This document shows positions 416 to 18,397 of a DNA stretch of 20,000 nucleotides, in pieces. The stretch is from an uncultured virus (IMG/VR IMGVR_UViG_3300030090_003678) (taxonomy: Duplodnaviria; Heunggongvirae; Uroviricota; Caudoviricetes): IMG/VR virus record IMGVR_UViG_3300030090_003678, positions 56,945 to 76,944 of that record; one strand, written 5' to 3'. Each line of letters opens with the position of its first letter. Position 1 is the first letter of the stretch. The position numbers and the translations under genes are program-made. A model generated the notes under the pieces. The model did not search any database, was not told the origin of the DNA, and saw only the letters and a list, made by a program, of their open reading frames with translations.

Positions 416-419
416 TCCT
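416..419 (-). promoter_or_regulatory. Shine-Dalgarno-like AGGA overlapping the TAG stop of the giant gene
   Basis: The minus strand reads TAGGATTAAAAAAATG; AGGA is 8 nt upstream of the ATG at 407. Confidence 0.55.
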
Positions 420-6400: not shown

Positions 6401-9400
6401 TTTTCTGCCAGCTTTTTAGTGATCCAATTGACTTGTTCAGGCGCTTCTGCTGCACCCATACCAAGTCGATAGTTCATAATACAACCTTCTTCAACTTCCT
6501 CTACACATTCAGTTGTATCAATATTTGCTTTGTTTATTATCCTTCCATCTACTGGATACTTGTCGCATGTATATAAGTCGAATGTGTCTAATGTTACATT
6601 TTTAATAACAAAGAAGTCAGCTGGTGGAGGAATTTCACCATTAATTATTTCACCGGAACAAGCGTAGTATTTACTATCGCAACTGAGTTCCCATGTACCT
6701 CCGCCGCCTTCCCATACTCCACCACATCCCGGAGGGCCATCTGCATCATCTTTTACACAACCACACTCTTCTCCCGGAGCTTTATCTTGATCAACAGTAA
6801 ATCCTGAAGGACAGTTCCCATCATCATCCTGCATCTTGCATATATCGGCATCAGCTTCGCAATCAGTCTTTCTGTCACATACTGTTCCATCTTCTCTTTT
6901 CTTTGAACATTTTCCATACTCACACTCTAACTTACTTCCTGCATCAGTTGATGCGTCCCATTTATAAACAGGTCCAAGACAGTCCTTTTTCTCTAGATCA
7001 ACTTCTGAGTCGTCAGACAGTCTAATACATTTGCCTTGAGAATCGTCTAGGCAAGCAGACGTATACGGACATATAGAATCTGGCCATACTAAGTTTTCAC
7101 AATTTGGTCCGTCGCACGGGCTGTAAAGTTTATCTTCCCATTGCATCTCTTGCCAATCCTTCTGGTACATAACATTGGCAGCAAAATTGCCCATGACATT
7201 GTAGGTATGTACCAAGTCTCCATCTTTTAGCAAATGGTTCCTTGAAGTAATTTTGATTGGTTTTTCGTTGCTGGCATATTGGATTCGTTTGTGTTGCTTG
7301 ATTCCTAAGCAGTGGTCATTGACATAGCTAGCCATTTCTCCCTTTGGGAATAGACCAGTATCGTGCCAGTAACTCATTGAGTTGCCGATATCGTTTCCTT
7401 CTGATCCAAGAATTCTTCTTGAATATCCTCCTCCTACTTTGTCACTAAAACCTTTCTTTATACTACTTGTATCAACAAGTCCACTTGTTGAAGGTCCAGA
7501 AGGTCTGGCTTTAATGATTCCTTCCAGCTCTCTTAGCGGATAGCTTGAATCAGAACCTCCAACGCTAGCACCAGTCCAAGTATTATCCCCATCTCTACCG
7601 TTACAAGCTTCTTCTGTCTCATAATCTTGGATTAATGTACCGTCTTCTAGCAGACATTGACCTAGCTTTTTCCCTAATACGATATCTACGAAAGCTTCAG
7701 GTACTGGTTGAACTTGAGGACATTCTTGGTTTTCTGCAAGAGCAATGCCTGCTGGAGAACATCCGTCATTCCAATTTCCTTCAGCCCCTCCTTCATCCAT
7801 AGGCTTTACGCACTCTGCTTCGGTTTTTGCCTCTTCCCATATGGGAGTAGCTTGTTTTTCTACAACATCTTTGAAGTTTACTAGCTTTCTGCGATCACAT
7901 CCTTCAAACCATTCACAACAAATGTTGAAGTCTCCTCCTGAAGCTGCGCAATCTTCTGGCGTAGCGTGTTCAAAACTTCCATCAGCTGCAACACAAGAGC
8001 CTGTTTTTCCACAACTTGCTTTAGTTTGCTCTTCACATTCAGGGCAAGAAAGGTTATTCGTCCAGCCATCGAATGGAACCCAACCAACCCACATAGCACC
8101 ATTACCATAGCCGCAATCACCTCTTCTCAAGAAACCCACATGATCATCAACATATTTTTTAGCTTTTGTGGCTACTTCATTACAAAAGCCATCATATTTT
8201 TTTACTGCGATAGGACCCGGACCTGTAGTCATTTCATCCCATGCCATGAAATCATAATACATGAAATAATCTGGACCATAATTCCAGAACCAAGTACCAC
8301 CACCAGCCATATGCCCTAATACATAAGCAGTACATGCTTGCCAATATTTATGATGTGCAGCAGCTTGATCAGGGCCTTTAGCTCTATTTTGTTTTTCTTC
8401 CGTCGCTTTGAATGGTTGAGGTTGTATGTTGAACCCATAGAATGCATCAGCTCCTTTGGCATTCATCAACTCGCCAAAGTATTCTCCTTTGTTACTATTG
8501 TAGTAATGATACGCTTGACATTGATCCTTACCACCATCCGCAATACCATCATAGTTTGCATCAGGATAGGCGCACCAATGCTGATGTTGTATGCCTTCTA
8601 TAGCATCTCCCGGAAAATATCCTATTGGGCCTTTCATCGCAAGCGGAGGAGCAGATCCACCAGCGCCTTTTTGAAAAAGCTCATTTACTGGGTTGCCCAT
8701 TTGGTCTCCCATTTTAGGGTCCCACAAAGGCTGAGATTCTGGCCAACCAGAACGAAGCTGAGATTCTTTTCCGAGAGTTAGATTAAAGTTAGAACAATTC
8801 ATAAACTGATCTACAGGCAAAAAGAGCATCACCTCTTCTCCACATGTAGTATCAAAATAATTGTCTTGTTGTCCCTTTATATCGTATGGGTCTGGTCTAG
8901 GAACACCTTTTTCTAAGCAAGCACCCCAAAAGTTACAGGGACGTATTGTAAGAGTCCAATAGCTTTCACCATCTAAATGGAATAGAACTCTATCATTTTG
9001 GTTTCCTACTGATGTGCAAGTACCTTCTGCGCCAGTTTGCGGAGCGTTGCTTCCAGTAATAGTAGAAGGCGAAAGAATCACCTCTGAATAAGGAGTTATA
9101 CAAACAGTATTTTTTCTTGTGTTTGCTGCTCCACCAGATATTTGCGGAGTGTGAAAAGGATGATCTTCATCTAATAAAGTTTGTCCACAACAAGACTGGC
9201 GTTCATATTCCCAATCAACAAAATCGTAAGGAATGAAAACATTTGGATGCTTCCAAATCCTTTCGTCGATTTCAAGACATTCTTCTTCTGTAGCAACATC
9301 TCCTTCCCAAACATCGCCAAACGCACCACTATAACAACCAGCGTATACTTCTTCCCCAGAATAAAGAACACAATTTTCTTGAGTTTCATAATGCCAATCA

Positions 9401-10692
9401 TGAGTGTGGTGAAATCTAACTTCACAATCATATTGATTTAATGCGGGAAACTTTGTAGGAGTCCCATTGCTTGTTGTTGGTCTCTTAAGACATGCTGGTT
9501 CTATGAGCTGATCTCTAACTGTAGGCTCACCATCTTTAGGAGAATAACAAAGACCTCTTAAGGTACATTCTTCTTTATCATCAAGAAGCCAAGTTGCACC
9601 AGAACTTTCACAAGTAGATTCATCTTTATCAGGGTTAGTACAAAAGGCTTCAACTTCAGTAGCATCAAATGGATGTCTACACCAAGGCTCTTTCTTTAAA
9701 GGTACAGCCCCATCTTCAAAGCAAGCGCTTTCTTTATTTGCTCCAGATCCATGGACTGCATTGTAAGAGCTATGAGCATAATACCCTTCAGGAGTAACGA
9801 ATATTCTACGTTCTCTTGCTTTTATATTTATTAGTGCGTCAGCTTTATTTTCAGAGAAGTGTGTTTTTTGTAGGTTTGTCCCTTTTAGGTCTACTAATCT
9901 TTGTCCAGCTCTGTCTTCTACATTGTTATTTGTGACATTTGGATCATTCTCACTCCAAAGACCATTTATATCTATACAGTCGTCTTCTGTAGTTATCCCA
10001 TAATTAGGGACTCCATTTACATCCCAGCAAATAGGTCTTTCTCCATCTCTGACGGATGAATTCAGCATGTCTGTTCCGCCACCGGGAAGCATTACGCCAT
10101 AGACTTCTGGTATCATCCAAGCATCAGCACCTCTTCTAGGCCAGTTATCTCCTTGTAGCGCTTTGTCGTAATCGAAATCATCTCTTACTTGAAATCCATC
10201 TCCTACTTGTTTATCAGAATCAAGTGTCACATATTTATTGTTTGCGTAATGGCACTCAGAAGGTTTGCCATTAGGAAGAGTAGTTACCTTACATGGATCA
10301 CAAGCATAACTTAATGTATCAGTCGCTGTTTGACTACAACATCTGCTACCTCTCCAAGCGCCATTAGAATATTTAAGATGGTAGGTTTCTCCTGCTCCAC
10401 CTTCTATTCCTGCACGAGCTTGATATCTTCCATCAGGAGTTCTAATAATAGTAACAGCTATTTCTGGAGGTAGCTGACATTTTGCTCCAGCTAGGTTGTC
10501 GCAATAAGTGTCTATACAGCCACAGCCCTCAGTGCAAAAACGACCGCCTCTCCTATCTTTCAAAGATAGAGGGTCGTCCTGAGCTGTATCATCAGAAGCG
10601 TCTGGCCACCAAGATTTCTTGCCAGTTCTTTGATTTCTTAGGTTTGGATAATAGGGATTATAGGAGGAATCCCAAGGATCACCAATTGCCAT
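418..10692 (-). CDS. Giant (3424 aa) cysteine-rich, acidic putative virion appendage/tail-fibre-like protein with two interrupted E1-FCCH-like domains and many nested two-Cys modules
   Basis: 10.3-kb uninterrupted ORF. The ATG overlaps the upstream TAA (TAATG, 10690-10694), with AGGA 5 nt upstream; TAG stop at 418-420. No signal peptide or obvious TM segment. Lies downstream of the hub-like gene. The ORF is secure; the product is inferred. Confidence 0.9.
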   Translation of the reverse strand: MAIGDPWDSSYNPYYPNLRNQRTGKKSWWPDASDDTAQDDPLSLKDRRGGRFCTEGCGCIDTYCDNLAGAKCQLPPEIAVTIIRTPDGRYQARAGIEGGAGETYHLKYSNGAWRGSRCCSQTATDTLSYACDPCKVTTLPNGKPSECHYANNKYVTLDSDKQVGDGFQVRDDFDYDKALQGDNWPRRGADAWMIPEVYGVMLPGGGTDMLNSSVRDGERPICWDVNGVPNYGITTEDDCIDINGLWSENDPNVTNNNVEDRAGQRLVDLKGTNLQKTHFSENKADALINIKARERRIFVTPEGYYAHSSYNAVHGSGANKESACFEDGAVPLKKEPWCRHPFDATEVEAFCTNPDKDESTCESSGATWLLDDKEECTLRGLCYSPKDGEPTVRDQLIEPACLKRPTTSNGTPTKFPALNQYDCEVRFHHTHDWHYETQENCVLYSGEEVYAGCYSGAFGDVWEGDVATEEECLEIDERIWKHPNVFIPYDFVDWEYERQSCCGQTLLDEDHPFHTPQISGGAANTRKNTVCITPYSEVILSPSTITGSNAPQTGAEGTCTSVGNQNDRVLFHLDGESYWTLTIRPCNFWGACLEKGVPRPDPYDIKGQQDNYFDTTCGEEVMLFLPVDQFMNCSNFNLTLGKESQLRSGWPESQPLWDPKMGDQMGNPVNELFQKGAGGSAPPLAMKGPIGYFPGDAIEGIQHQHWCAYPDANYDGIADGGKDQCQAYHYYNSNKGEYFGELMNAKGADAFYGFNIQPQPFKATEEKQNRAKGPDQAAAHHKYWQACTAYVLGHMAGGGTWFWNYGPDYFMYYDFMAWDEMTTGPGPIAVKKYDGFCNEVATKAKKYVDDHVGFLRRGDCGYGNGAMWVGWVPFDGWTNNLSCPECEEQTKASCGKTGSCVAADGSFEHATPEDCAASGGDFNICCEWFEGCDRRKLVNFKDVVEKQATPIWEEAKTEAECVKPMDEGGAEGNWNDGCSPAGIALAENQECPQVQPVPEAFVDIVLGKKLGQCLLEDGTLIQDYETEEACNGRDGDNTWTGASVGGSDSSYPLRELEGIIKARPSGPSTSGLVDTSSIKKGFSDKVGGGYSRRILGSEGNDIGNSMSYWHDTGLFPKGEMASYVNDHCLGIKQHKRIQYASNEKPIKITSRNHLLKDGDLVHTYNVMGNFAANVMYQKDWQEMQWEDKLYSPCDGPNCENLVWPDSICPYTSACLDDSQGKCIRLSDDSEVDLEKKDCLGPVYKWDASTDAGSKLECEYGKCSKKREDGTVCDRKTDCEADADICKMQDDDGNCPSGFTVDQDKAPGEECGCVKDDADGPPGCGGVWEGGGGTWELSCDSKYYACSGEIINGEIPPPADFFVIKNVTLDTFDLYTCDKYPVDGRIINKANIDTTECVEEVEEGCIMNYRLGMGAAEAPEQVNWITKKLAENKGIPSQEPAQFRCLDTYTGKLSFQNNGKSTHIPTGDTITNSEASGAPIDEEHTCYKTQSDGGKACAEADCDALGICFNTIDKTGALDENGNPKSKADCTDFAERWTTSWRNYDTFEDDEKTADNEAEINCALYGTCTVVLGYESNANAFMKKEDCDALAQVYTMYDPSVDVDHKNQLYVNRCQDADAKLLNDKDLHSGTTEEQKEACESKGKCYDYDGDVVGGINNKSDCEESGFEFKGATFIEGRYADCVDLNNDDPFKTCWSQAWYGDLGILDLGSELTSGKGKPSVGVYKTCPFTGEFDYWGHHEDIGVEGGYIGHYEDDEIDSLYRFGFGGPGYKWEERANDYYVQIEQKGICPVCCDHFMPNKLVATVTGQSSEILDYIGCGMDECEAPTADDSQSFNAAKALKNEGYCCSDTFHPCDLRDLPECEDEFRRHIADPNNVDITFGTCTEDGGRIKTLKWRKKGCDGKDETFTPLTHSGGVSECNMFLRKRPTMGGGTNCRKCSSVYTSRSKTKTVSQTGNTQVQYIGVDKDGKETDCCADAYCEALVSDNNNDIIGNCSHPYLPCKEAKSCSGIEEKNCGDQNVGEVVQITSALTATCTKVSDAPESAYIWAFDPCSCYPNFVEMKYEPEVVEDIGDGTCHVNGNGDEGYDNDAYTGCYGLHIQTEADETCVDHTNSHEPVDETCPGLQSLDVPMEYDGVVWRSEWTLMNTVGTHQCDLGLHRFKWPSACQPTGPNLDFSPYTSFKAGDELVAINADCNACDMPQYGGMNGGVRVDGLSSDLVFRNARPPSLPQDGHFIRLVMGCGNSIPSMAAYNSGDIVDGGFGPNGGDNYRQNGLEIWAEITNCTFTSFLGSESLRVDNVTDGVTGVPPCDTGGLIGCLPKRLITGDSWRKTGKPSALERRYTFAGRCISKNDCGPSGACVDTECCTYTGIDYPFRTGGGSPPIRAPLWSGGVACSTGGDISHRCQSYGFDPIPNKPAEQFTVRYVKDVDPETGEATLVIPAYPPTFGGRHCAYEKGTPIGIGLAELQQAETDTFGSYSRSNKSRNPYLPAGGTILYTDIPRGDNIPDKDGDAGRGSGQYMEIRVADVSKLITKNPRKNRHLRIYDRTRTQNGNPVSATTFDYMNMKQNLELPQPYGLNPWPVDHQTHSSLSRHMSMWPKGVPMGPSNVESLRTDPTGSITQPGRIGPKPTVDNLNRMFRYKEVDTGGGMTTPIPEILPVEPVMINAFENIYSDEDYFCTNNTYKNNSTCVGNGHLWIPHFSHTEVATHYDHDLADAEKVVISGSVVYPATCKGTRMGYCVDDRYGMNVSRMDINECSEGACVDVATNTGITDSNGDPITDKNECDRVGFGGIPNPVTPGGLAEFQTNGEWVQLYEDTGDPESPLGMDGDKFLCERIFGGDWVIGRRNDEKDGYKYKDPLNLKPLEISGGQKTGDAKDFFVEGCPVGCQINGFYLQDPCQPPSKTNPLGQCFECVEIKYEDDSGNEQREMRCPRGPADGSYVVRKRGCQNAKYDNKEDCKENGWHWWEPVTAATRFALHDELELVVHDASQLRSNLEANKPAPRFGKASDWEYDPSQKLKTVTKDAGFFGEGEKITEGGLASRLGSCEFPQGTKWEDTNGEVTDPPSEVDTKAGCEQHFCTLYEIDNETACTSRGYDWVKGVWINTCGSVRDVTYSSVFDTCVDLNTLDQQFPFYFPADDSYVPDDSQESLEMARLCDMSDSCESIRPYKECRDVSDDQAGTCIYLVDGNEVTESVTASECGPTGVFIGPVIQKTKKECGEAGLTLGASIDTQIINEFVCIDSSGNTLNVRTPAECTKIVKGTVKYLGKPVANSADDRKLNLITQKEKFLELSSPEAMLMGHEVGIGLAPRNFKGVIYAPQAENEKFNEYADPHWRAVWSRHGGAFDIIIGYPPPVNNCRQGNSNKPVNMDFYLGFDQICCNERGPLNFHQCEEKCWTHYLGPHFEDMELRYGTHGDSIMHVNIHE
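1765..2706 (-). other. E1-FCCH-like beta domain 2, split by three Cys-rich insertions
   Basis: The segments INAFEN / HTEVATHYDHDLADAEKVVISGS / ADGSYVVRK / VTAATRFAL occur in canonical order, separated by inserts at 2667-2608, about 2514-1897 and 1860-1801. Confidence 0.55.
6571..7284 (-). other. E1-FCCH-like beta domain 1, split by a 185-aa Cys-rich insertion
   Basis: The N-half IQYASNEKPIKITSRNHLLKDGDLVHTYNVMGNFAAN (7284-7174) and C-half DFFVIKNVTLDTFDLY (6618-6571) join into the familiar I..ASN..PI.IT...HGL..GD.V.I..V.GN..ANG.F.I..VT.DTF.L pattern of FCCH-like domains (Pfam E1_FCCH-like) in phage proteins. Confidence 0.7.
6958..7035 (-). repeat. 26-codon module, copy A (GKCIRLSDDSEVDLEKKDCLGPVYKW) in the 3424-aa gene
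   Basis: Ungapped 18/26 aa and 54/78 nt identity (hand count) to 15857-15934. Confidence 0.85.
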
Positions 10693-10701
10693 TATATTCC
10701 T
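10690..10701 (-). promoter_or_regulatory. TAATG stop/start overlap with upstream AGGA (translational coupling)
   Basis: The minus strand reads CAGGAATATAATG: AGGA at 10701-10698, TAA at 10694-10692, ATG at 10692-10690. Confidence 0.65.
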
Positions 10702-12506
10702 GCCGTCTCTGGATAATCATCATCTGGGCCACAATCTTCAGCAGTAGCAAATCCTTGAGCAAAGAATTTTTTACTGCAAGCAGCCATTTCCCCTCTATCA
10801 CAACCAGCATGTGTAATAATTTCCATACCGTAAAATTCACCCTGTAGTATCACATGAACGGGTATAGTTTCTTTTACTTTAATTTTAGTACCAGCTGTTT
10901 GTCCACATCCCGGATCTTTCATTCTCTCATATTCGTATGTTATTCTTCTACCAGTATCATAACTAAAAAACGCATCTCCTACCATCAAACCTTGACCTAA
11001 AGGATTCTCAATGAATATCTTTTCATACATTAGGTTTTTAGCTTGCTGACTCCATTCTTTATCTATAGCAATCTTTTCATTAATAAACTCATCTTCTCCA
11101 AAGTAGCTTGAACCCCATCCATGACATGGATTTCCAGCTCTTCTAGCTCCGGGCGCTCCACCCTGAACCTTTCTGAATTTGTCTGTACATTCAGTTAGTT
11201 GATTTGGTTTACCAACAATCTCATCTACTGGACGCAATATAATTGCATCATAAAATGGAGAACAACCATCTTTAAAATCTGCACAAGCAGTCAGATGTCC
11301 TAAAGTTCTACATCTACCACACCAATTATGATCTTCTGGGTCATATATTTCTATATCAGGATAATAGATACTAGTTGGAAAGTATGAAGTATATGTACAA
11401 TCATGAGTTGGACATGGGTTTCTATATAGTCTTCCCGGTGCATTTACATTTCCGCCTACACCAAAGTTGAATGAATTATTCCCATCTATACCAGCTTTTG
11501 GCAATATACATTTTGCAGCTTTTGATAAATAAATACCATTGTGTTTACCACCCACCCAAACTTTTCTATTTGGATCCCATCTTAGGTCTACTGGTCCAAC
11601 CTTCCATCTATCACTTCTTCGCATATGATGAGGAAGAAAATGTTTGTGGTCTCTTCTTGCACCAGACTCTGACTTCGCTTGCAAAGCTGGAGGATAGTAC
11701 CTTGTTCTTCCGTAGTTTGCAGAGTTCTCATCGTTGTATTTATAGTCCGCATCATCTCTTAGGTTAGGAACAGGTTTTCCATAAATGTCATAACCCCATC
11801 CGCCCATGACTAACGGGCCTCTTAGTCCAACTGGTCTAGCTGTCTCGACAGATTTTTCTGGAGCCGAAGTTAGCCTTGGTGCATCTTTAGAATAACCTCC
11901 TCCTTGAGCGATTTGAACTGGATCATTTATCTCTAGGTTTTTATTAAGTACATTAACATTGTGGCCAGAAGCAAATGGATTAAGAGAAACAGAAGTAATA
12001 AAAGGAGGAGCTGGAGCATTTGCTCCTAAAAGAGTTTCATTTCCAGCACCTTCCCATTCAACAGAATGCTCAACGATCCTATCACCAGATGCGTCTTCTC
12101 CTTTTGCTGTCGCATAAGGTCTTTCAAATGTAGGCATGGCTATGCCGTCATTCGGTCTGTTAGCTCCGGTCTCATGACCTCCATCGCTTTGAATTACAAA
12201 GTTGGTAGCGTAGGGGATAAACAAGCCATCCATTGACATTCCTGATGTCTTCTTGAATGTTTCATGGCTTTGGTTTTGGTTTTTTATAGCATACGCAGGC
12301 CCAGACACAGTCATTGCAGGGTTATCTATCATCCTCATATGGGTTTTCCCATAATCTGGATGATTATCCCAGCTCAAGACATTATTATTACCGTCTCTTA
12401 CTTCAAGAGGATTTGGCGCCCATGCAGAAGTAAGCATTAAGTGACTATAATTTTTTGTCTCTTCTTTCTTCTTTTCTTTATCGCTAACGTATTCTCTAAA
12501 TGCCAT
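10692..12506 (-). CDS. Hypothetical phage structural protein (604 aa), probable tail-tip/baseplate component with Cys-rich C-terminal third
   Basis: Long ORF in the operon. ATG 11 nt after the upstream TAA, with AGGT 6 nt upstream. It has a conserved-looking Gly/Trp/Pro core (RPVGLRGPLVMGGWGYDIYGKPVPN...WKVGPVDLRWDPNRKVW). All Cys residues lie C-terminal to this core. Confidence 0.88.
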   Translation of the reverse strand: MAFREYVSDKEKKKEETKNYSHLMLTSAWAPNPLEVRDGNNNVLSWDNHPDYGKTHMRMIDNPAMTVSGPAYAIKNQNQSHETFKKTSGMSMDGLFIPYATNFVIQSDGGHETGANRPNDGIAMPTFERPYATAKGEDASGDRIVEHSVEWEGAGNETLLGANAPAPPFITSVSLNPFASGHNVNVLNKNLEINDPVQIAQGGGYSKDAPRLTSAPEKSVETARPVGLRGPLVMGGWGYDIYGKPVPNLRDDADYKYNDENSANYGRTRYYPPALQAKSESGARRDHKHFLPHHMRRSDRWKVGPVDLRWDPNRKVWVGGKHNGIYLSKAAKCILPKAGIDGNNSFNFGVGGNVNAPGRLYRNPCPTHDCTYTSYFPTSIYYPDIEIYDPEDHNWCGRCRTLGHLTACADFKDGCSPFYDAIILRPVDEIVGKPNQLTECTDKFRKVQGGAPGARRAGNPCHGWGSSYFGEDEFINEKIAIDKEWSQQAKNLMYEKIFIENPLGQGLMVGDAFFSYDTGRRITYEYERMKDPGCGQTAGTKIKVKETIPVHVILQGEFYGMEIITHAGCDRGEMAACSKKFFAQGFATAEDCGPDDDYPETAGI

Positions 12507-12517
12507 TTTTCTACCTA
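12507..12517 (-). promoter_or_regulatory. 11-nt intergenic spacer with second stop codon and SD-like AGGT
   Basis: The minus strand reads TAATAGGTAGAAAAATG; AGGT is 6 nt upstream of the ATG at 12506. Confidence 0.5.
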
Positions 12518-15500
12518 TTAATCTTTCTGGTATTGACCTATTCCTCTTTTGACTCTTTCCATTTGCTCTTCTGCTCTAGAAAGTCTTTGCATTATGTCTG
12601 ACTGTGACTTTCTTATTCTGTCTTCATAAAGCTTTCCTAAGTCTCCGAACTTTCTTTGGGTAGAGAAGCTATAGCTAGTTGTCAATCCGTTACTTCCAAC
12701 TCTCAAACTCACATCAGTAATATAAGGACCTTTAATTTCCTCTCCACTACTGTCGAAATAAGTCAGTTGTGTTCCAAATGCATAAGCTGGTATTCCAACT
12801 AGTTCAATAGAACCTGTTTCTATAACTCTATTTTCGCTTTGGCCAATAACTGTTTCTATTCTAGACATTGCCACATCTCCCATTTGAGTTTCTCCACCAA
12901 ATGCGGCTGGGTGTAATCCATCGTCAGTAGAAAATTCAGTTTTTCCATATGCTTCAAGTCCAGCAGCCCAAGGACCCCATCTATAGTGTTTGCTTTGTTG
13001 TGGTATAGCAGCGTGCCAAGGTTTATATGCAGCAGCAACAAAAGAGCCTTTTCCCATATCAGGGCCTAAGTTAGGCGCATACTTGCTTCTAGCTTGCATA
13101 GCTATCAGTTGTTGTGCTGTAACTCCTTGAGGTAATAAACCATTCAACCAAGCCCCTAATAAGAAGTTTGAGTTTCCTCCTTTAGTAAGAGGAAGACACA
13201 TTTCATTTTTATTACCTCCGCAAGAATTCATTAATGGATGAGCCATATCAATATCTGGATAAAATGCTCGATTTGCTAGAGTCACTAGTGCATAAGGTTT
13301 ATATGCAGCAAATTCATTGGTCTGCTCACTACCTGTGTTATCTATCTCGTTTTCTCTGATATATACAGGACGCGTTTTTAATTCTGTTTGTGTACCATCA
13401 ATTTCACTGCCTATTTTTAAATACTCTTCGGATGCGGCATGGTCGATGCTACTTCCATCTACCTTAGCGTCATCTCCACATCTATAACGGAAATATTGCT
13501 CTTCATGATGAATCTCCCAGTCTGGTCTTTCTTTTAGCCAGTGTGTTTTTGCATCAACTTCAGCAGCCACAAATACCTTTTTTCCCCAATTATCATCAGG
13601 GCCAACTTTGCTTACAGGTTCTACATGCATGGTTTCTGCATCAAAATCTCTGAAGTCTAATATCTTAGAGTCTTGTGTTGCTCGCCTATAATCTTTTTCT
13701 GGGAATATAACAAAGGACTTTAGATTTCCTTCTTCCGTCCAGAAATTCATATTCTGAGGATATCCAGTATTGGCATTTTTAGAGTCTGGTGTACCAAAGT
13801 TAAACTCAATATCTCCACCGGGCCAAGCTCCATTAGTTGCTATTTCCCATCTGTTAATTTCCTGTATTGGTTCGATCCATTTTTCTCTAGCAATTATTTC
13901 GCATGTGTATTTGTCTGGACTCACTCCATCAGTACAGCGACCAATGCCTTGTTTAGCAAACCATTCACTTAATAAACCATGGACACCCCAATCGAATCCA
14001 GCATCTTCACATTGAGTTTGATCCTCGTATTTGGGATTTGTGCAATGTACTGTAGAAGGTGGATTAAAAGGTAAAGGCACTAGATACTTCTTGCCATAGA
14101 AGTTGTCTGCAACATCTTTTATCTTTTTATAAACCATCTCAATTTCCATTGACGTTGCTTGGAACAATGTCAAAGAAGTTGTTCTTGGCTTATCTCCACA
14201 AACAAAACCAGAAATGCTTTGCGCCTCTTCAGTGTCGGCATTGCTTTCGTCAGTAATACCAGTAGAAGCCATCGGTGGAGGACTTGAGTTACCCCAAGCA
14301 ACTAATACTTTTGCTGCTTCAAGAGTTGTTTGACTTTTACCTCCATGAATTACTACTTCATCTTTAGCTGGACATAAGTCACCCCAAGCATTTGATGGCT
14401 CAGGTGTTTTTTCATAAAACCAACAAGGCATGTATGGCTGTAGGGTTTTTACAAAAATCTTCCAAGAATCTATACTCTGAGCTGCATGTCTGAGTTCAGT
14501 CACAGTTGCATAATAAAACTCATCATATCTTTTTGCAGGGTCATTTATAGAAGATTTAGGGCCTCCTTTATATGGAGTATTCCCTAAATCAATAGGTATA
14601 GTTGACGTTCTACATACAAGAGGAAGGCCAATACCAGTATTCAAATCGACTGGCTTGTAATGCACTTCGTTTTGGCTACCGCCATTATCTTGATCGTAAC
14701 AGTCTCTTTCTGTTTCTATGTCCTCATTGTTTGGTGGATCTTTTGGGTCTTGTTTTTCTCCATCACTATCACGAACTTGCCTACACACACCCTTTAGCCT
14801 AATTCTAGGTTGTGTATATCCGGGAGCTGGATTGTCTTTTGACTCAATTACCCTACCAGTAAAGTCATCAGTAAACTGAGGGCCATAATCAAAAGTGCTA
14901 ACAAGCGTCCACTCTGCTTTTCCGGGATATTTTGTTTTGCAATCTCTTGGTGTAGCAGCATCAGTCCAATCGCCTTTATGAAATAAAACCTTTCCTTTAT
15001 CGTTTTCTATGTCTTCAGTGGCTTCACACCTACTATCAAATGGATTTCTATATGATACCGCTTTACATCCGGGACTATATAAACTTCCTCCACTTTCAAA
15101 TTGGTTCATATCTGCTGGATCAAATCCAGAAGGAAGAGCATCTCCATTAGCATCTATTTCAAAGGAAGATCTAGCTTCAGGAGTTGCAAGAAGATTTCCA
15201 CTGTCTGTACAGTCTGCTGGACTTCCAACGAACTTAATAAACCCACTTTCAGTGTTAACTTCCCATTTAGGATCATTGAATGTAGCAGCTTCTCCAGCTT
15301 TCTTTTCAAACCCTCCTTCTTTGAAGTCTTTCGCATAGTAGGCTACTATAGCACTTCCTTGAGGGTCTCCGTTTCCGTCTTCTGCAAAACAAGCGTGTTG
15401 ACAAGCCCATGCATTTTCACCAACATTATTTTCAGGACCAACAATATCTTCATGCATCTTAGAAGATATATCTACATTGTTCTTATCTCTACACGCACCC

Positions 15501-18397
15501 CAATTGATACACCAAGGTCGCCATTTATATTGTTTCAGATCCCCAGCTTTCTTTACGGCGCAGTCGGAGTCTGGTGGATTTACTTCTGGTCTAGGATCAC
15601 ATTCGCAAATAAACTTTAAGTTTTCATAATCTTCATTAGCTTGTCCTGTAGCTAATTCCTCACAGATTCCTAAAGACGGATTAAAAAACTCAATCCCACT
15701 AAAAATACCTTCAGTAGGGTGAAAGTCTCTATAAGGATCATCATCATTGAAAAATCCCTTGATTGGATTTCCTCTAACGCTTAGATCAACAATGTCGTTA
15801 TAAACATTGTCTGCTGCAATTGACTGAGGATCTGCTGGAGTCCAACTCCCTACAACCCATTTGTAAGTAGGACCAAGACAACTGTCTTTTTCTACGTCTA
15901 CTACTGAGTCATCGGCAGTCTTGATACATTTTCCATTTTCTTCTTTTTCACATTCCTCTTGTGTCTTAAGACCTCCCTCAGAACATGAACCTTGTGCAAC
16001 AGCACCACCTTTAACAAGCTCTATGGTTTCATATCCCCAGCATGGATATAGATCTAGATAGCCTGAGTCTGTGGAGTGTTTTTTTGTCCAAATTCCAGAT
16101 GCGTCAAGGCATAGTTTCTCAGTATCAGGATACTCCCAATTACCTCCTTTATCTGCGCATTCTGTAGCATTAGTTGGTCCAGCTACAACTTCTGGATCTT
16201 TTTTTGGAGGGCTAATTTTTAAACATGCTTTTACATCACAATCACCTGCATTAAGCTGATGCTTTGAGTTGAGTCTATTTAACTGATAGGGATTAAATCC
16301 ACCATCTTGTTTGAAATCTTGTGGCCAATACCAAGGCAAATAATTATCATTGCTTACAGGAGGCAAATTTCTTTCAAAGTCTGGGTAGTCTAGCGTCTCT
16401 TTGTCCGAGTATATTCCTTGTTTTCCATAAGGATTCCATCTCAACTTATTACTGTCTGAAGGAAACTCATCTTTAGGGAATTCTTGATTTATAAGAGTAA
16501 CGCCATCATCTTCAACGTGTGGCAAGAACTCTGTTAAAATCGAGTCTACTCCTTCTGTTGGTGCTGGATCTTCATCAGTTACATCTTCAGTTGTCCAGAC
16601 ATGATTTGCTTGAGCTTCGCAATCAGCTTTATTTGTATAGGAAGGAGCCTTATCTCCATTACCATCTACACAATAAGATTCAGTGTTTGTTTTATCAAAA
16701 TACTTTCCAGTAGTTTGATTGTAGAAAGTATCTTTTCTTACATTGACATCTCCTAAAGGTGTAACACCAATGACTCTTGTTCTAGGCGCACCAAGGACCA
16801 TCTTGCCTTCAATAGGATCTGTAAATTCATAACCTAAGTTGGCACTTACTAAAGTTGGGTTATTTTGATTATCTACAAAAGGCCCTTCTGGAGGTGTCTT
16901 TTGTGACAGATCAACTGCATCCCCAATAGAACCACGAGTGATTGTTGTCGTTCTTGGGATAGGAACAACTTTTATGATTCCAGAATAATTTTTAACATCC
17001 GGCCATTCTTCAGGTTCAATAAACCCATCTTTGATTAGATTTTTGGTTATAGGGCTTAATGTTACATAAAAATCAGCTCCTACAACCGCGCAAGCTTCTT
17101 CTATTAAAGATAAAAGGCTTGCTGTATCTCCAGAGATTCTCCAATCATTTGGTATCAAACCTTCTTCGTCTCCTGAAGACGAAGATGAACTAGAACTTGC
17201 TATATCTGAAGACTTAGAACTGAACTTAAAAAAATCAGTTAGGTCAACTAGATATCTATGTATATGCCAGCTTTCTGGATTGCCATCTTCATCTAATTTT
17301 ACTGCGCCTGCTTCGTCTTTTATAGATGCGGAGTTTAATATGCTTTGAGATGGATTTACATTTCTAGTGTCTCTGCTGTAGTGTAAGGGTCCGCCAAATG
17401 GTTCAAATTCTTCAATGTAATTCGTGTCTTTGCCACTTAACATATTTGCAAGTGCGCCCAAAATACCAAAAGCATGTTTTCTTTTTGGTGCTTGCTTATC
17501 TTCGTCAAGACTTGGGTTGTAATCTCCAAACTTGTTAATGAATTGTTTATTTGGATTATTCCAAATCATTCCGGCTTCTGTAATATCAGATTTGTTAAAC
17601 CCGTGATATTCGTAGTACCCAAACACATTTATTATGTTGTAATACCCATTCCATCCTTTTTCGTATTCTCTTCCTGAATCTTCGATTCTATACGCATCAG
17701 CAGGAGATGTTCTTGCAGCAAATTTGTTAAGTACAACGATTGTATTTTCGAGTATTGATCTTGGGTCTGCAATTTCTACCGTGTAGGTTTCTCCAGCAGT
17801 TGAAAACTTTTTATCGTACTTTGTTAAAATTCCCGGAAAAGAGAACACAGTGTTACAAGTAAGAGCGCCATCTTTTAAGACTCCATCATCATCATAATCT
17901 CTTTTTACGCAGTCTTGTATTAAGTCTCTTCCGCTGTAGTAATTAAAAAAGACAGGAGATCCCGGATCAGGAATAAAAGGAATGTCTCCATGAGTGGAGT
18001 AGAGTTTTCCCATTCCTTTATCTGGATCTGATGGGTTGTCTTCGTTCTCTAGATTGTGCAATCTTAAAAGATCAATAGGAAACGCATTAGGATCATTAGG
18101 GTGATAACCTTCAGAAACGGCATCTCTAGTACCAGAGGGAGTTAAGTAAGTTTCAAAATTAACTTCGTCTCTTACTAAATTAACGCTAAGACTAGAACTG
18201 TTACTACCCAAGCCTAAATTTGCAGAAAAATCCATAATCGACAAACCTAAGAAAGTTTGCTGAAAGATTTCTGGATTATTAACATAGTCAGTTATTGCTG
18301 AGGCGTATTTGTCCCAAGACCCACCATTAGCTGTACAATCAGCCTCATTTTTATACTGAGGTTTGCTACATTTATTTACATCTTTATTAGGAGCCAT
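12518..18397 (-). CDS. Large (1959 aa) putative baseplate hub / tail-tip protein expanded by Cys-module insertions
   Basis: Long ORF, TAATG-coupled to the upstream gene, ending in a double stop TAA TAG. The N-terminal beta pattern (SIMDFSANLGLGSNSSSLSVNLV...FPGILTKYDKKFSTAGETYTVEIADPRSIL), the helical SLLSLIEEACAVVGADFYV and the C-terminal TGSIELVGIPAYAFGTQL...YITDVSLRVGSNGLTTSYSF resemble the layout of gp27/GpD/Tal-type hub proteins. It ends in a coiled-coil-like tail. The family call is by-eye pattern recognition. Confidence 0.85.
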   Translation of the reverse strand: MAPNKDVNKCSKPQYKNEADCTANGGSWDKYASAITDYVNNPEIFQQTFLGLSIMDFSANLGLGSNSSSLSVNLVRDEVNFETYLTPSGTRDAVSEGYHPNDPNAFPIDLLRLHNLENEDNPSDPDKGMGKLYSTHGDIPFIPDPGSPVFFNYYSGRDLIQDCVKRDYDDDGVLKDGALTCNTVFSFPGILTKYDKKFSTAGETYTVEIADPRSILENTIVVLNKFAARTSPADAYRIEDSGREYEKGWNGYYNIINVFGYYEYHGFNKSDITEAGMIWNNPNKQFINKFGDYNPSLDEDKQAPKRKHAFGILGALANMLSGKDTNYIEEFEPFGGPLHYSRDTRNVNPSQSILNSASIKDEAGAVKLDEDGNPESWHIHRYLVDLTDFFKFSSKSSDIASSSSSSSSGDEEGLIPNDWRISGDTASLLSLIEEACAVVGADFYVTLSPITKNLIKDGFIEPEEWPDVKNYSGIIKVVPIPRTTTITRGSIGDAVDLSQKTPPEGPFVDNQNNPTLVSANLGYEFTDPIEGKMVLGAPRTRVIGVTPLGDVNVRKDTFYNQTTGKYFDKTNTESYCVDGNGDKAPSYTNKADCEAQANHVWTTEDVTDEDPAPTEGVDSILTEFLPHVEDDGVTLINQEFPKDEFPSDSNKLRWNPYGKQGIYSDKETLDYPDFERNLPPVSNDNYLPWYWPQDFKQDGGFNPYQLNRLNSKHQLNAGDCDVKACLKISPPKKDPEVVAGPTNATECADKGGNWEYPDTEKLCLDASGIWTKKHSTDSGYLDLYPCWGYETIELVKGGAVAQGSCSEGGLKTQEECEKEENGKCIKTADDSVVDVEKDSCLGPTYKWVVGSWTPADPQSIAADNVYNDIVDLSVRGNPIKGFFNDDDPYRDFHPTEGIFSGIEFFNPSLGICEELATGQANEDYENLKFICECDPRPEVNPPDSDCAVKKAGDLKQYKWRPWCINWGACRDKNNVDISSKMHEDIVGPENNVGENAWACQHACFAEDGNGDPQGSAIVAYYAKDFKEGGFEKKAGEAATFNDPKWEVNTESGFIKFVGSPADCTDSGNLLATPEARSSFEIDANGDALPSGFDPADMNQFESGGSLYSPGCKAVSYRNPFDSRCEATEDIENDKGKVLFHKGDWTDAATPRDCKTKYPGKAEWTLVSTFDYGPQFTDDFTGRVIESKDNPAPGYTQPRIRLKGVCRQVRDSDGEKQDPKDPPNNEDIETERDCYDQDNGGSQNEVHYKPVDLNTGIGLPLVCRTSTIPIDLGNTPYKGGPKSSINDPAKRYDEFYYATVTELRHAAQSIDSWKIFVKTLQPYMPCWFYEKTPEPSNAWGDLCPAKDEVVIHGGKSQTTLEAAKVLVAWGNSSPPPMASTGITDESNADTEEAQSISGFVCGDKPRTTSLTLFQATSMEIEMVYKKIKDVADNFYGKKYLVPLPFNPPSTVHCTNPKYEDQTQCEDAGFDWGVHGLLSEWFAKQGIGRCTDGVSPDKYTCEIIAREKWIEPIQEINRWEIATNGAWPGGDIEFNFGTPDSKNANTGYPQNMNFWTEEGNLKSFVIFPEKDYRRATQDSKILDFRDFDAETMHVEPVSKVGPDDNWGKKVFVAAEVDAKTHWLKERPDWEIHHEEQYFRYRCGDDAKVDGSSIDHAASEEYLKIGSEIDGTQTELKTRPVYIRENEIDNTGSEQTNEFAAYKPYALVTLANRAFYPDIDMAHPLMNSCGGNKNEMCLPLTKGGNSNFLLGAWLNGLLPQGVTAQQLIAMQARSKYAPNLGPDMGKGSFVAAAYKPWHAAIPQQSKHYRWGPWAAGLEAYGKTEFSTDDGLHPAAFGGETQMGDVAMSRIETVIGQSENRVIETGSIELVGIPAYAFGTQLTYFDSSGEEIKGPYITDVSLRVGSNGLTTSYSFSTQRKFGDLGKLYEDRIRKSQSDIMQRLSRAEEQMERVKRGIGQYQKD
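15857..15934 (-). repeat. 26-codon module, copy B (GKCIKTADDSVVDVEKDSCLGPTYKW) in the 1959-aa gene
   Basis: Ungapped 18/26 aa and 54/78 nt identity (hand count) to 6958-7035. Confidence 0.85.
17174..17197 (-). repeat. Poly-serine (S8) low-complexity tract in the 1959-aa protein
   Basis: ...SSKSSDIASSSSSSSSGDEEG..., encoded by mixed AGT/TCT/TCA/TCG codons. Confidence 0.8.

What the first reader, a model, noticed from the sequence alone, without database searches (positions are those of the whole stretch)
6958..15934. One module copied between two different genes, each time as an inner insert
GKCIRLSDDSEVDLEKKDCLGPVYKW (7035-6958, aa 1220-1245 of the giant protein) and GKCIKTADDSVVDVEKDSCLGPTYKW (15934-15857, aa 822-847 of the hub-like protein) align ungapped at 18/26 aa and 54/78 nt. 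Similarity stops at the module boundaries. Copy A sits between the two Cys of its host module; copy B sits after the second Cys of its host (GSCSEGGLKTQEECEKEEN[...]VVGSW). This indicates that the module is the unit of movement and can land in either loop of a host about 9 kb away. No terminal repeats or target-site duplications are visible, so the mechanism is unknown (possibly microhomology recombination at the GxC / GxW codons).
Basis: seen in the sequence. Interest (0 to 1): 0.72.

Follow-up and report, generated by a model that had tools for sequence, protein, structure and literature searches.

The report
Mobile mini-domain in phage giant proteins
A 26-amino-acid, two-cysteine mini-domain has been inserted whole into loops of several giant virion proteins of an uncultured marine phage, and it shows proteins evolving by gain and loss of an exactly bounded small cassette.

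Summary
The two 26-aa segments match at 18/26 aa and 54/78 nt. This is the only A×B window pair above 10/26, and similarity stops at the edges.

Orthologues show both copies are inserts. Copy A is in 2 of 31 A-type proteins, between two conserved host cysteines. Copy B is in 3 of 25 B-type proteins, before a host G-x-W closure.

A and B are not a recent copy pair. Among identical residues, 9 of 17 codons match against 8.4 expected.

The recent partner of A is a third gene, T, found only in metagenomes. T carries the same module at 72-77/78 nt. The flanks are unalignable and the identity breaks within one base of the module edges. One seawater run holds T with and without the module, and A-gene contigs branch off at the module edges.

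The module is therefore a real unit of gain, loss and exchange. It belongs to a conserved 'CLGPVYxW' subfamily that sits at many positions in these proteins. The mechanism is only inferred: near-homology-free recombination plus selection, then short-tract conversion. No reverse transcriptase, template copy, terminal repeats or hairpin were found in the half-complete genome.

The parts
6958..7035 (-). Module copy A: 26 codons (GKC...CLGPVYKW), aa 1220-1245 of giant protein A. The stretch shared with gene T at nucleotide level is 6957-7036.
   Evidence: It is present in only 2 of 31 orthologues. It matches the T-gene module at 72-77/78 nt. Loose ends of A-gene contigs map to 6927-6956 and 7037-7066.
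6922..7053 (-). Host loop of copy A, from Cys1214 to Cys1257 of protein A. The module with about 5 linker residues lies between these two host cysteines.
   Evidence: MAFFT alignments of 31 and of 6 orthologous stretches. P0031 lacks 31 aa at this site.
15857..15934 (-). Module copy B: 26 codons (GKC...CLGPTYKW), aa 822-847 of protein B. It is an older member of the same subfamily.
   Evidence: It is present in P0004, P0006 and, diverged, P0007, out of 25 B-type proteins. It matches any A or T copy at 54-56/78 nt. Its codon test is at the chance level.
15842..15991 (-). Host module of copy B (aa 803-852): G-S-C...KTQEEC-EKEEN, then the insert, then the closure VVGSW.
   Evidence: P0008-P0011 have one uninterrupted module at this site and 18 others have none; the same composite (GSC..KTQEDC..C..CLGPIYSW-KKGVWTP) sits in an A-type protein of locus L006.
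418..10692 (-). Gene A: a 3424-aa protein with 4.8% Cys and no family hit. Some relatives carry a Peptidase_M23 domain.
12518..18397 (-). Gene B: a 1959-aa protein with 2.1% Cys and no family hit.
10692..12506 (-). Gene C: a 604-aa conserved protein between B and A. I used it to fetch the syntenic loci L004-L009.

Best explanation
The 26 codons encode a small self-folding unit with two cysteines and one tryptophan. It is predicted as strand-strand-short helix-strand. It belongs to a conserved subfamily (G-x-C-[IV]-x-T...V...[DE]-C-L-G-P-V-Y-x-W) of the Cys/Trp mini-domains that stud the giant, probably tail-region, virion proteins of an uncultured marine phage lineage. CheckV puts this contig at about half of the genome.

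Shown:
- The 78-80-bp coding cassette is gained and lost whole and in frame. It sits inside cysteine-bounded loops or just before the G-x-W closure of a host module.
- Copy A is a lineage-specific insertion.
- Copy A's nearest relative is a near-identical copy in an unrelated gene T, not copy B.
- T occurs in the wild with and without the module.
- Copy B is an older member of the same subfamily.

Inferred mechanism:
- Rare recombination or template switching without flanking homology (at most 1-2 bases shared at each junction) moves module-coding DNA between genes. This happens within one genome or between co-infecting relatives.
- Selection keeps only inserts whose ends coincide with the fold, because such a unit can sit in a surface loop without disturbing its host.
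- Once two copies exist, short-tract gene conversion can keep exchanging them within the 78 bp of homology, which would explain the razor-sharp edges. The phage encodes a RecA/UvsX-like recombinase, SSB and a PD-(D/E)XK nuclease.

The likely role is a variable surface knob on host-contacting proteins. That is a guess from context and is not tested.
For: Insert status:
- Copy A is in 2 of 31 A-type proteins. 17 others keep the surrounding Cys block without it and 12 lack the whole block.
- Copy B is in 3 of 25 B-type proteins. 4 have a single module at the site and 18 have none.
- P0003 and P0031 share 61% identity over 3216 positions. All 5 indels of 12 aa or more are Cys-module sequence. Four of them are confined to P0003/P0030 among the 7 proteins aligned.

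Recent DNA-level sharing:
- The T gene (L103, L116) has the module at 26/26 aa to the A-type L064/L131, and at 72-77/78 nt to all A copies.
- Flanks are 39-51% identical, which is unalignable.
- Identity starts at GGC and ends at TGG, plus or minus 1 nt.
- The same codon is used in 19-24 of 22-25 identical residues, against about 10-12 expected (P from 6e-8 to 4e-5). For A-B the figures are 9 of 17 against 8.4 (P = 0.48).

Wild populations:
- In run X4 a 173-nt contig at depth 44 joins L116 position 257 to 393. It skips 135 nt, 45 codons in frame.
- Module-bearing T pieces (depth 2-4.7) lie in the same run.
- In X3 and X4, loose ends at both module edges are the A-gene flanks of this window.

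Cross-gene haplotypes: module sites 9 and 16 group A_L064, A_L131 and T_L116 against A_win, A_L021, A_L077 and T_L103.

Subfamily spread: members sit at 8 or more non-homologous positions in A- and B-type proteins of other phages.

Fold: AlphaFold2 on the 12-sequence module alignment gives pLDDT 89.9, with E4-7, strand residues 13-14, H18-21 and E26-29.

Recombination genes: RecA-like, SSB and PD-(D/E)XK proteins are present in the contig.
Against: - No step of the mechanism is observed directly.
- Junction microhomology is at most 1-2 nt, which is also what chance gives.
- The same cassette edges recur in three gene contexts. Random breakpoints filtered only by selection should sometimes carry ragged donor flanks. 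The only such hint is in T, where the module-less allele also lacks linker residues and the TEKLV stretch. That fits a deletion as well as an insertion.
- I do not know whether T lies in the same genome as A. T has no homologue in this contig, in five relatives' records, in IMG/VR, in the species genomes or in GenBank phages. In run X1, T sits on an unbroken 3436-nt contig with no A piece laid.
- The cross-gene haplotype signal rests on two synonymous transitions.
- The joint comes from one short Logan contig laid at 85% likeness.
- The nested reading of the B site has a rival alignment in which the single module of P0009/P0010 pairs with the inner module.
- The longer structure model, A aa 1101-1400, was unusable at pLDDT 36.
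Confidence: 0.6

Rival explanations
1. Direct intragenomic copy between B and A. The module of gene B was copied into gene A (or the reverse) within this phage lineage, and B is the ultimate source of the A/T cassette.
For: - In the 12-sequence module alignment, which holds no T copy, the B modules of the same lineage are the nearest to A (18/26, against 15/26 for the next).
- B has the module in a deeper clade: P0004, P0006 and the 57%-identical P0007. A has it only in the shallow P0003/P0030 clade. That fits a B-first order.
- In run X4 a B-type variant shares the 3' 33-35 nt of the module with T/A at 85% or more.
Against: - Synonymous sites between A and B are saturated: 9 of 17 codons the same against 8.4 expected.
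- Modules of far more distant phages at other positions reach 15-17/26. P0028 against P0040 gives 17 and P0028 against P0006 gives 17. So 18/26 hardly exceeds subfamily conservation.
- T is far closer to A (72-77/78 nt) than B is (54/78).
- I could not check that P0007 and P0031 come from one lineage.
Confidence: 0.2
2. A dedicated mechanism moves or rewrites the cassette. Candidates are a retroelement or template-directed system (DGR-like), a small selfish repeat that inserts in frame (RPE/MITE-like), or programmed conversion from silent cassettes.
For: - The cassette has the same edges, to within one base, in three unrelated contexts.
- Presence/absence polymorphism occurs within one sample.
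- Half of the genome is unseen: CheckV completeness is 51%.
Against: - There is no RVT_1 and no RecT match in the contig.
- There is no third or non-coding copy.
- The seven variable sites among A and T copies are ordinary transitions and transversions, not adenine-specific changes.
- There is no hairpin: the DNA fold z-score is +0.63.
- There are no terminal inverted repeats and no target duplication.
Confidence: 0.1
3. Nothing moved. A and B carry ancient paralogous repeats of one domain family, and their likeness is only purifying selection or convergence on a small fold.
For: - The subfamily is strongly conserved across phages whose scaffolds share only 25-40% identity.
- A-B synonymous sites carry no signal.
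Against: - The module is absent from 29 of 31 A-type and 22 of 25 B-type orthologues at those sites, while the flanking residues align.
- A and T are near-identical in DNA with unalignable flanks.
- A module-less T allele exists.
Confidence: 0.05
4. Artefact: the shared module in T and A comes from chimeric metagenome assembly across a short repeat.
For: All T evidence comes from metagenome contigs. Logan contigs break at the module in X3 and X4.
Against: - T flanks lie on both sides of the module in two assemblies with different haplotypes and linkers (L103, L116), and in an unbroken 3436-nt contig of run X1.
- A flanks lie on both sides of the module in five assemblies.
- A chimera would show one flank of each gene.
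- The reading frame stays open through 624 nt in both T loci.
Confidence: 0.02

Closest known systems
Ongoing shuffling of protein fragments between unrelated phage proteins (Smug et al. 2023, PMC10684548; abstract and found passages read)
   Same: Otherwise unrelated phage proteins share a fragment at 70-90% aa identity or more ('recently emerged mosaicism'). The sharing concentrates in host-interaction proteins and is attributed to recombination.
   Different: - The unit here is only 26 aa (78 nt), far smaller than the ECOD domains treated there.
- It is inserted inside loops of other modules, whereas that paper treats swaps between whole domains.
- Its edges are defined to the base.
- Presence and absence are seen within one natural sample.
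Rickettsia palindromic elements and other MITEs that insert in frame into protein-coding genes (review PMC10969869; found passages read)
   Same: Short DNA units are found in frame in unrelated ORFs. They add a peptide that the host protein tolerates.
   Different: RPEs are about 150 bp, palindromic and multi-copy. This cassette has no hairpin, no terminal inverted repeats and no target duplication. The contig holds only two copies, both coding. The cassette also encodes a conserved folded domain, which speaks against a mere tolerated peptide.
Self-nesting Cys/Trp mini-domains of giant phage tail-tip proteins, with a single copy in T4 baseplate protein gp8
   Same: - Both are 20-30-residue modules with two Cys and one Trp.
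- Modules sit inside modules.
- There is a W-x-x-G-x-W closure: here YKW-VVGSW in B and YSW-KKGVW in L006.
- The proteins are giant and come from uncultured marine phages.
   Different: As far as the excerpts show, those notes describe architecture. This report adds DNA-level evidence that one subfamily was exchanged recently between genes and is polymorphic in the wild. The link to T4 gp8 was not reproduced here beyond a sub-threshold Pfam hit.
Diversity-generating retroelements (recalled knowledge)
   Same: They diversify phage tail-tip proteins in a targeted way using a second copy of a short sequence.
   Different: There is no reverse transcriptase in the held half of the genome, no template repeat and no adenine-specific mutation pattern. 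A whole unit is inserted or deleted; the differences are not rewritten positions.
Ig-like domains scattered over phage structural proteins (Fraser et al. 2006; recalled, not read here)
   Same: Small accessory domains are added promiscuously to virion proteins and are probably surface-exposed.
   Different: - There is no Ig or any other Pfam hit.
- The unit is about a quarter of the size of an Ig domain and is disulfide-stapled.
- It is inserted internally and nested.

Membership tests
Phage protein-fragment mosaicism (Smug et al. 2023) | Two otherwise unrelated proteins share a fragment at 70% aa identity or more (high confidence) or 90% or more (very high confidence). | tested here: met
   A and T modules are 23-26/26 aa and 72-77/78 nt identical. 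Flanks are 39-51% nt identical, which is unalignable. T has no other similarity to P0003-P0059.
Phage protein-fragment mosaicism (Smug et al. 2023) | The shared fragment corresponds to a structural domain. | tested here: inconclusive
   AlphaFold2 predicts a compact strand-strand-helix-strand unit at pLDDT 89.9 from a 12-sequence alignment. No solved fold matches it: Foldseek best E is 9.9 and VIA best Z is 2.1. The model in its host context failed.
Diversity-generating retroelement | A reverse transcriptase gene nearby. | tested here: not met
   There is no RVT_1 hit among 67 ORFs of 100 aa or more, nor in a six-frame search of the contig. Only about 51% of the genome is held.
Diversity-generating retroelement | A template repeat and a variable repeat that differ at adenines of the template. 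| tested here: not met
   The contig has no third or non-coding copy. Variable sites among A/T copies are C/T, A/G and T/C changes. A-B differences are spread over all codon positions.
RPE/MITE-like in-frame selfish repeats | Palindromic or terminal-inverted-repeat structure and target-site duplication. | tested here: not met
   The DNA fold of module plus flanks gives z = +0.63. Only short chance-size repeats are found. Nothing is duplicated at the junctions.
RPE/MITE-like in-frame selfish repeats | Many copies, including intergenic ones. | tested here: not met
   The 76.9-kb contig holds two copies, both coding.
RPE/MITE-like in-frame selfish repeats | In-frame insertion into unrelated ORFs. 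| tested here: met
   Genes A, B and T all carry the unit in frame.
Self-nesting Cys/Trp mini-domain of giant phage tail proteins (earlier scan notes); T4 gp8 segment | The pattern C-x(about 10)-C-x(2-3)-G-G-x-W, repeated in giant proteins. | tested here: met
   Six such stretches of A and B align with invariant C, C, G and W. A crude regular expression finds 7 in B against a shuffle mean of 1.4 (maximum 6), and 12 in A against 6.6 (maximum 14). The count for A alone is therefore not significant.
Self-nesting Cys/Trp mini-domain of giant phage tail proteins (earlier scan notes); T4 gp8 segment | Modules nested in modules, with a W-x-x-G-x-W closure. | tested here: met
   B has ...YKW-VVGSW after an interrupted host module, and 4 orthologues have the host uninterrupted. 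The L006 A-type protein has ...YSW-KKGVW. A rival tandem alignment exists.
Self-nesting Cys/Trp mini-domain of giant phage tail proteins (earlier scan notes); T4 gp8 segment | Sequence relation to T4 gp8 residues of about 140-170. | tested here: inconclusive
   PF09215 Phage-Gp8 hits profile positions 138-170 in a neighbouring gene of L006 at 17 bits, against a cut-off of 25. phrog_977 gives E = 0.0028. A profile of 7 generic modules did not list gp8 in the PDB at E of 10 or less.
Silent-cassette gene conversion systems (pilS, vls; recalled) | An array of silent donor cassettes and flanking homology at the expression site. | tested here: not met
   The contig has no further copies and there is no flank homology between contexts. 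Half of the genome is unseen.

The most novel reading that the evidence does not exclude
The cassette is moved or rewritten by an active, end-specific process. Examples are a phage-encoded recombination system that swaps or inserts module cassettes among tail-tip genes, or a donor locus in the unseen half of the genome. That would be a targeted way of diversifying host-contact proteins by whole mini-domain insertion, distinct from DGRs.
Probability: 0.12. Interest if true: 0.9.

Novelty: new variant of a known kind. Interest (0 to 1): 0.66.

Why it matters
Domain insertion is a major route of protein evolution, but events are almost always seen long after the fact. Here a very small unit (26 aa, 78 nt) is caught at three stages in one phage lineage:
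- an old copy (B);
- a lineage-specific insertion (A);
- a copy (T) that shares near-identical DNA with A, with base-sharp edges, and is still present or absent within a single seawater sample.

This makes a concrete question testable with existing viromes and long reads: how does a coding cassette enter an unrelated gene in frame without flanking homology, and how much of the precision is mechanism and how much is selection? It also shows that the giant cysteine-rich virion proteins of abundant uncultured marine phages vary by module content. That variation may bear on host recognition.

Tried and rejected
Family and structure look-ups that gave nothing:
- Pfam and PHROGs on the five window proteins.
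- PDB sequence searches with A, B, a neighbour protein, a 40-aa piece of B and a generic-module profile.
- GenBank phage tblastn with P0005, P0025 and T. P0033 was too long for that tool.
- ESM Atlas: busy on the first try, no usable hit for T on the second.

Wider searches for the module:
- The profile of 12 module sequences against 1.84 billion representatives gave 11 hits at E of 0.001 or less. Only P0027 belongs to this family. The rest are repeat proteins or partial motif matches.
- The third word-index search, on A aa 1212-1253, gave 4 candidates and returned only P0030. It says nothing about closer donors.
- The IMG/VR pattern scan for CLGPVY.W gave 13 loci, 2 of them true and both already known.
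- In the metagenome scan, 13 of 119 loci passed an in-frame Cys filter. Seven were true by eye: L032, L064, L077, L103, L116, L131 and L138.

Attempts to find the rest of gene T all failed:
- the records behind L103, L116 and L131 are not held;
- IMG/VR searched by protein, by alignment and by a second peptide pattern;
- the species genomes searched by exact module DNA and by alignment;
- five relatives' whole records, which matched the module only;
- six-frame BLAST against all fetched loci;
- earlier scan notes searched by sequence.

Structure and literature:
- The model of A aa 1101-1400 from 6 sequences had pLDDT 36 and was unusable.
- Fold searches with the 32-aa model gave no meaningful match.
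- The preprint on cysteine-rich repeats and HGT describes a different six-cysteine repeat and is not relevant (outline and sections 9 and 11 read).
- Full-text searches for a description of such modules in phages found none. This is no proof that none is in print.

Read-laying observation I did not use as evidence: run X1 showed no A-gene piece. Contigs show presence, not absence.
Full report
CONTEXT

The window is the last 20 kb of a single 76,944-bp virus record. Its GC content is 38%. CheckV puts completeness at 51% and the record is linear. The rest of the contig encodes these functions:
- ribonucleotide reductase;
- a DNA polymerase III alpha in two ORFs;
- PhoH;
- a RecA-like recombinase, SSB and a PD-(D/E)XK nuclease;
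- DnaB and primase;
- a sigma factor;
- many glycosyltransferases.

It is therefore a large phage.

All window genes lie on the minus strand:
- A: 418..10692, 3424 aa, 4.8% Cys.
- C: 10692..12506, 604 aa.
- B: 12518..18397, 1959 aa.
- An ORF that runs off the end of the window.

None of them hits Pfam, PHROGs or the PDB. GenBank phages hold no relative of C or of a B-type protein. In syntenic relatives the neighbours include a ConA-like lectin-domain protein and a protein with a sub-threshold match to T4 baseplate gp8. Some A-type proteins carry a Peptidase_M23 domain. A tail or baseplate role is therefore likely but not shown. 'Hub-like' for B is unsupported.

THE OBSERVATION

BLASTP gives 49.3 bits against 34.7 bits for the next A-B hit. 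In an exhaustive scan of 26-residue windows, only this diagonal exceeds 10/26 in A×B. Nothing exceeds 10/26 in A×A or B×B apart from a poly-Ser run. Nucleotide identity is 16-21/30 inside the module and 6-11/30 outside. The contig holds no further copy. Inside this genome it is neither chance nor general convergence of modules.

ARE THE COPIES INSERTS?

A-type proteins. I aligned the query and 30 database relatives around the site, 31 in all:
- The module occurs only in P0003 and its 96%-identical relative P0030.
- 17 others (P0031-P0047) keep the surrounding cysteine-rich block, with the two flanking cysteines a short loop apart.
- 12 lack the whole block.
- DNA loci give the same picture. 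L004 has the module. L005, L006, L007 and L009 do not. L008 lacks the block.

B-type proteins, 25 in all:
- 18 have no module at the site.
- 4 have one uninterrupted module ending in ...A-C-E-A-L-G-x-D-x-x-W.
- 3 (P0004, P0006 and the diverged P0007) have a second module set between the host's second Cys plus 5 residues and the host's G-x-W.

This supports the nested reading. However, tblastn offers a rival alignment in which the single module of P0009/P0010 pairs with the inner one. The whole composite also recurs in an A-type protein of another phage: L006 has GSC..KTQEDC..SC..CLGPIYSW-KKGVWTP. The composite may therefore itself have moved as a unit.

More generally, module content is the main length variable. 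P0003 and P0031 share 61% identity over 3216 aligned positions. All five indels of 12 aa or more are Cys-module sequence present in P0003. Four of them are confined to P0003/P0030 among the seven proteins aligned. The fifth is a loss in P0031.

A AND B ARE NOT A RECENT PAIR

Among the 17 identical non-Trp residues, 9 use the same codon. Codon usage alone predicts 8.4 ± 2.0, and P = 0.48. The 54/78 nt match is therefore just what the protein identity implies.

The two modules belong to a conserved subfamily with invariant C, C, P and W and a consensus ...E-D-C-L-G-P-V-Y-x-W. The subfamily sits at 8 or more non-homologous positions in A- and B-type proteins of other phages. One of these positions is a second site in the same Cys block, in L009.

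Non-orthologous members from very distant phages reach 15-17/26. The 18/26 of A-B barely exceeds subfamily conservation. B may be the ultimate source of A's copy, but this is not shown.

THE RECENT PARTNER IS A THIRD GENE

I ran a back-translated motif scan over metagenome contigs. 13 passed an in-frame filter and 7 were true. The true hits include:
- three more A-type copies (L064, L077, L131);
- two loci, L103 and L116, in which the same module lies in an unrelated open reading frame. I call this gene T.

T has no similarity to anything else in the contig, in proteins P0003-P0059 or in the fetched loci. Its GC is 38-39% and it has 9 Cys in 208 aa, like the window's genes.

The T module compares with the A and B copies as follows:
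- It is 26/26 aa identical to that of L064/L131 and 72-77/78 nt identical to every A copy. B is 54-56/78 to all of them.
- The flanks are 39-51% identical, which is unalignable.
- In the alignment, identity starts at the first G of GGC and ends at TGG, give or take one base.
- Codons are the same in 19-24 of 22-25 identical residues (P from 6e-8 to 4e-5).
- A-T divergence (1-6 nt) is in the range of strain variation within gene A (0-5 nt) and within T (4 nt).
- Sites 9 and 16 group A_L064, A_L131 and T_L116 against A_win, A_L021, A_L077 and T_L103. This hints at repeated exchange between the genes, but it rests on two synonymous transitions.

WILD POPULATIONS

Runs holding T are marine: 20 runs from 12 studies. 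I laid Logan contigs of four runs on L116. The module lies at 301-378 on the plus strand of L116. The results were these:
- In X4, a 173-nt contig at depth 44 joins position 257 to 393 and skips 135 nt. This is 45 codons, in frame. It leaves the two host cysteines seven residues apart.
- Module-bearing T pieces (depth 2-4.7) lie in the same run.
- In X3 and X4, loose ends at positions 300 and 379 are the A-gene flanks of this window. They map to 6927-6956 with one mismatch and to 7037-7066 exactly. A-gene contigs therefore branch from T at the module edges.
- In X4, a B-type variant shares only the 3' 33-35 nt of the module. Its loose flank maps beside copy B at 15828-15854.
- In X1, T lies on an unbroken 3436-nt contig.

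In T, too, the module with its linkers lies between two host cysteines. The two T orthologues carry different linkers around it.

WHAT THE UNIT IS

AlphaFold2 on the 12-sequence module alignment gives a confident small fold. Mean pLDDT is 89.9, with strand 4-7, strand residues 13-14, helix 18-21 and strand 26-29. It has no solved counterpart. The model in its host context failed.

Earlier notes of this scan describe self-nesting Cys/Trp mini-domains with a W-x-x-G-x-W closure in giant tail proteins of other uncultured phages, and they link them to a segment of T4 gp8. The closure is seen here too. I could not reproduce the gp8 link beyond a sub-threshold hit.

MECHANISM

Shown: the unit is gained, lost and shared between unrelated genes as a whole, in-frame, base-sharp cassette.

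Not found (only half of the genome is held):
- a reverse transcriptase or RecT;
- a template or silent copy;
- a hairpin;
- terminal repeats or target duplication.

Inferred:
- Rare recombination or template switching, with at most 1-2 nt of junction homology, moves the cassette.
- Selection filters for inserts that match the fold boundaries.
- Short-tract conversion between copies then acts on the 78 bp of homology.

The recurrence of identical edges in three contexts keeps an end-specific mechanism alive as a minority reading.

COMPARISON AND VERDICT

The closest published frame is recent fragment shuffling between phage proteins (PMC10684548, passages read). In-frame selfish repeats such as RPEs (PMC10969869, passages read) work similarly, but their defining features are not met here. 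My full-text searches found no description of this module or of its movement.

The finding is real. The specific A-B copy event is not supported as recent.

Noticed in passing
L006:13540-13785 (A-type gene of a related phage): The whole composite seen at the B site also sits in an A-type protein of another phage. The composite is a host two-Cys module with KTQE[ED]C, an inner CLGP.Y.W module and a KKGVW-TP closure. It is alignable to B aa ~798-870 over 85 columns at 38%. Composites as well as single modules seem to move.
   Followed up: partly
L009:12186-13058 (A-type gene of a related phage): A further member of the same subfamily (GKCINAFSGETVDLEE..C.AP.F.W) is inserted in the same cysteine-rich block, about 90 residues downstream of where copy A sits. 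This looks like an independent insertion in another lineage.
   Followed up: partly
window 1393-1590, 6076-6144 (gene A aa 3036-3101 and 1517-1539): Three further Cys-module stretches of protein A are confined to P0003/P0030 among seven aligned orthologues. They look like other lineage-specific module gains. I found no paralogue above 10/26 in the window.
   Followed up: partly
proteins P0035 aa 1619-1664 and P0036 aa 1994-2040 (A-type relatives): A Peptidase_M23 domain lies just downstream of the cysteine-rich block in some A-type relatives and is not detected in this window's protein A. This suggests a cell-wall-degrading function that comes and goes in this protein family.
   Followed up: no
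genome G000:C1 34498-39611 (L002:15498-17408 and L003:25-1611): DNA polymerase III alpha is encoded in two ORFs: PHP plus NTPase domains, then the finger domain. An RNase_T-type exonuclease gene and a TylF-like methyltransferase gene lie between them.
   Followed up: no
proteins P0061 and P0067 (hits of the module profile; unrelated 620-640-aa proteins): The C-terminal repeats 'KVK(I/V)KKAEC(L/V)PPRY.W.VG.GCF' resemble the second half of the module (C-L-x-P-x-Y-x-W). Their origin is unknown.
   Followed up: no
proteins P0062 and P0063 (hits of the module profile; 165-230-aa proteins with a signal/lipoprotein-like start): They carry tandem repeats of 'G-x-C-[IVY]-x-T-S-x-G-x-x-V-x-x-x-x-C'. These resemble the first, hairpin half of the module. 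They may be distant relatives or convergent.
   Followed up: no
window 17167-17230 (protein B, aa ~390-410): A poly-serine run (SSSSSSSS) lies in protein B. It is the only internal self-similarity above 10/26 in B.
   Followed up: no
L116 plus-strand positions 277 and 297 (T gene linker): Runs X4 and X7 show a 3-nt insertion and a 3-nt deletion in the linker beside the module. The linkers around the module vary in length between strains.
   Followed up: no
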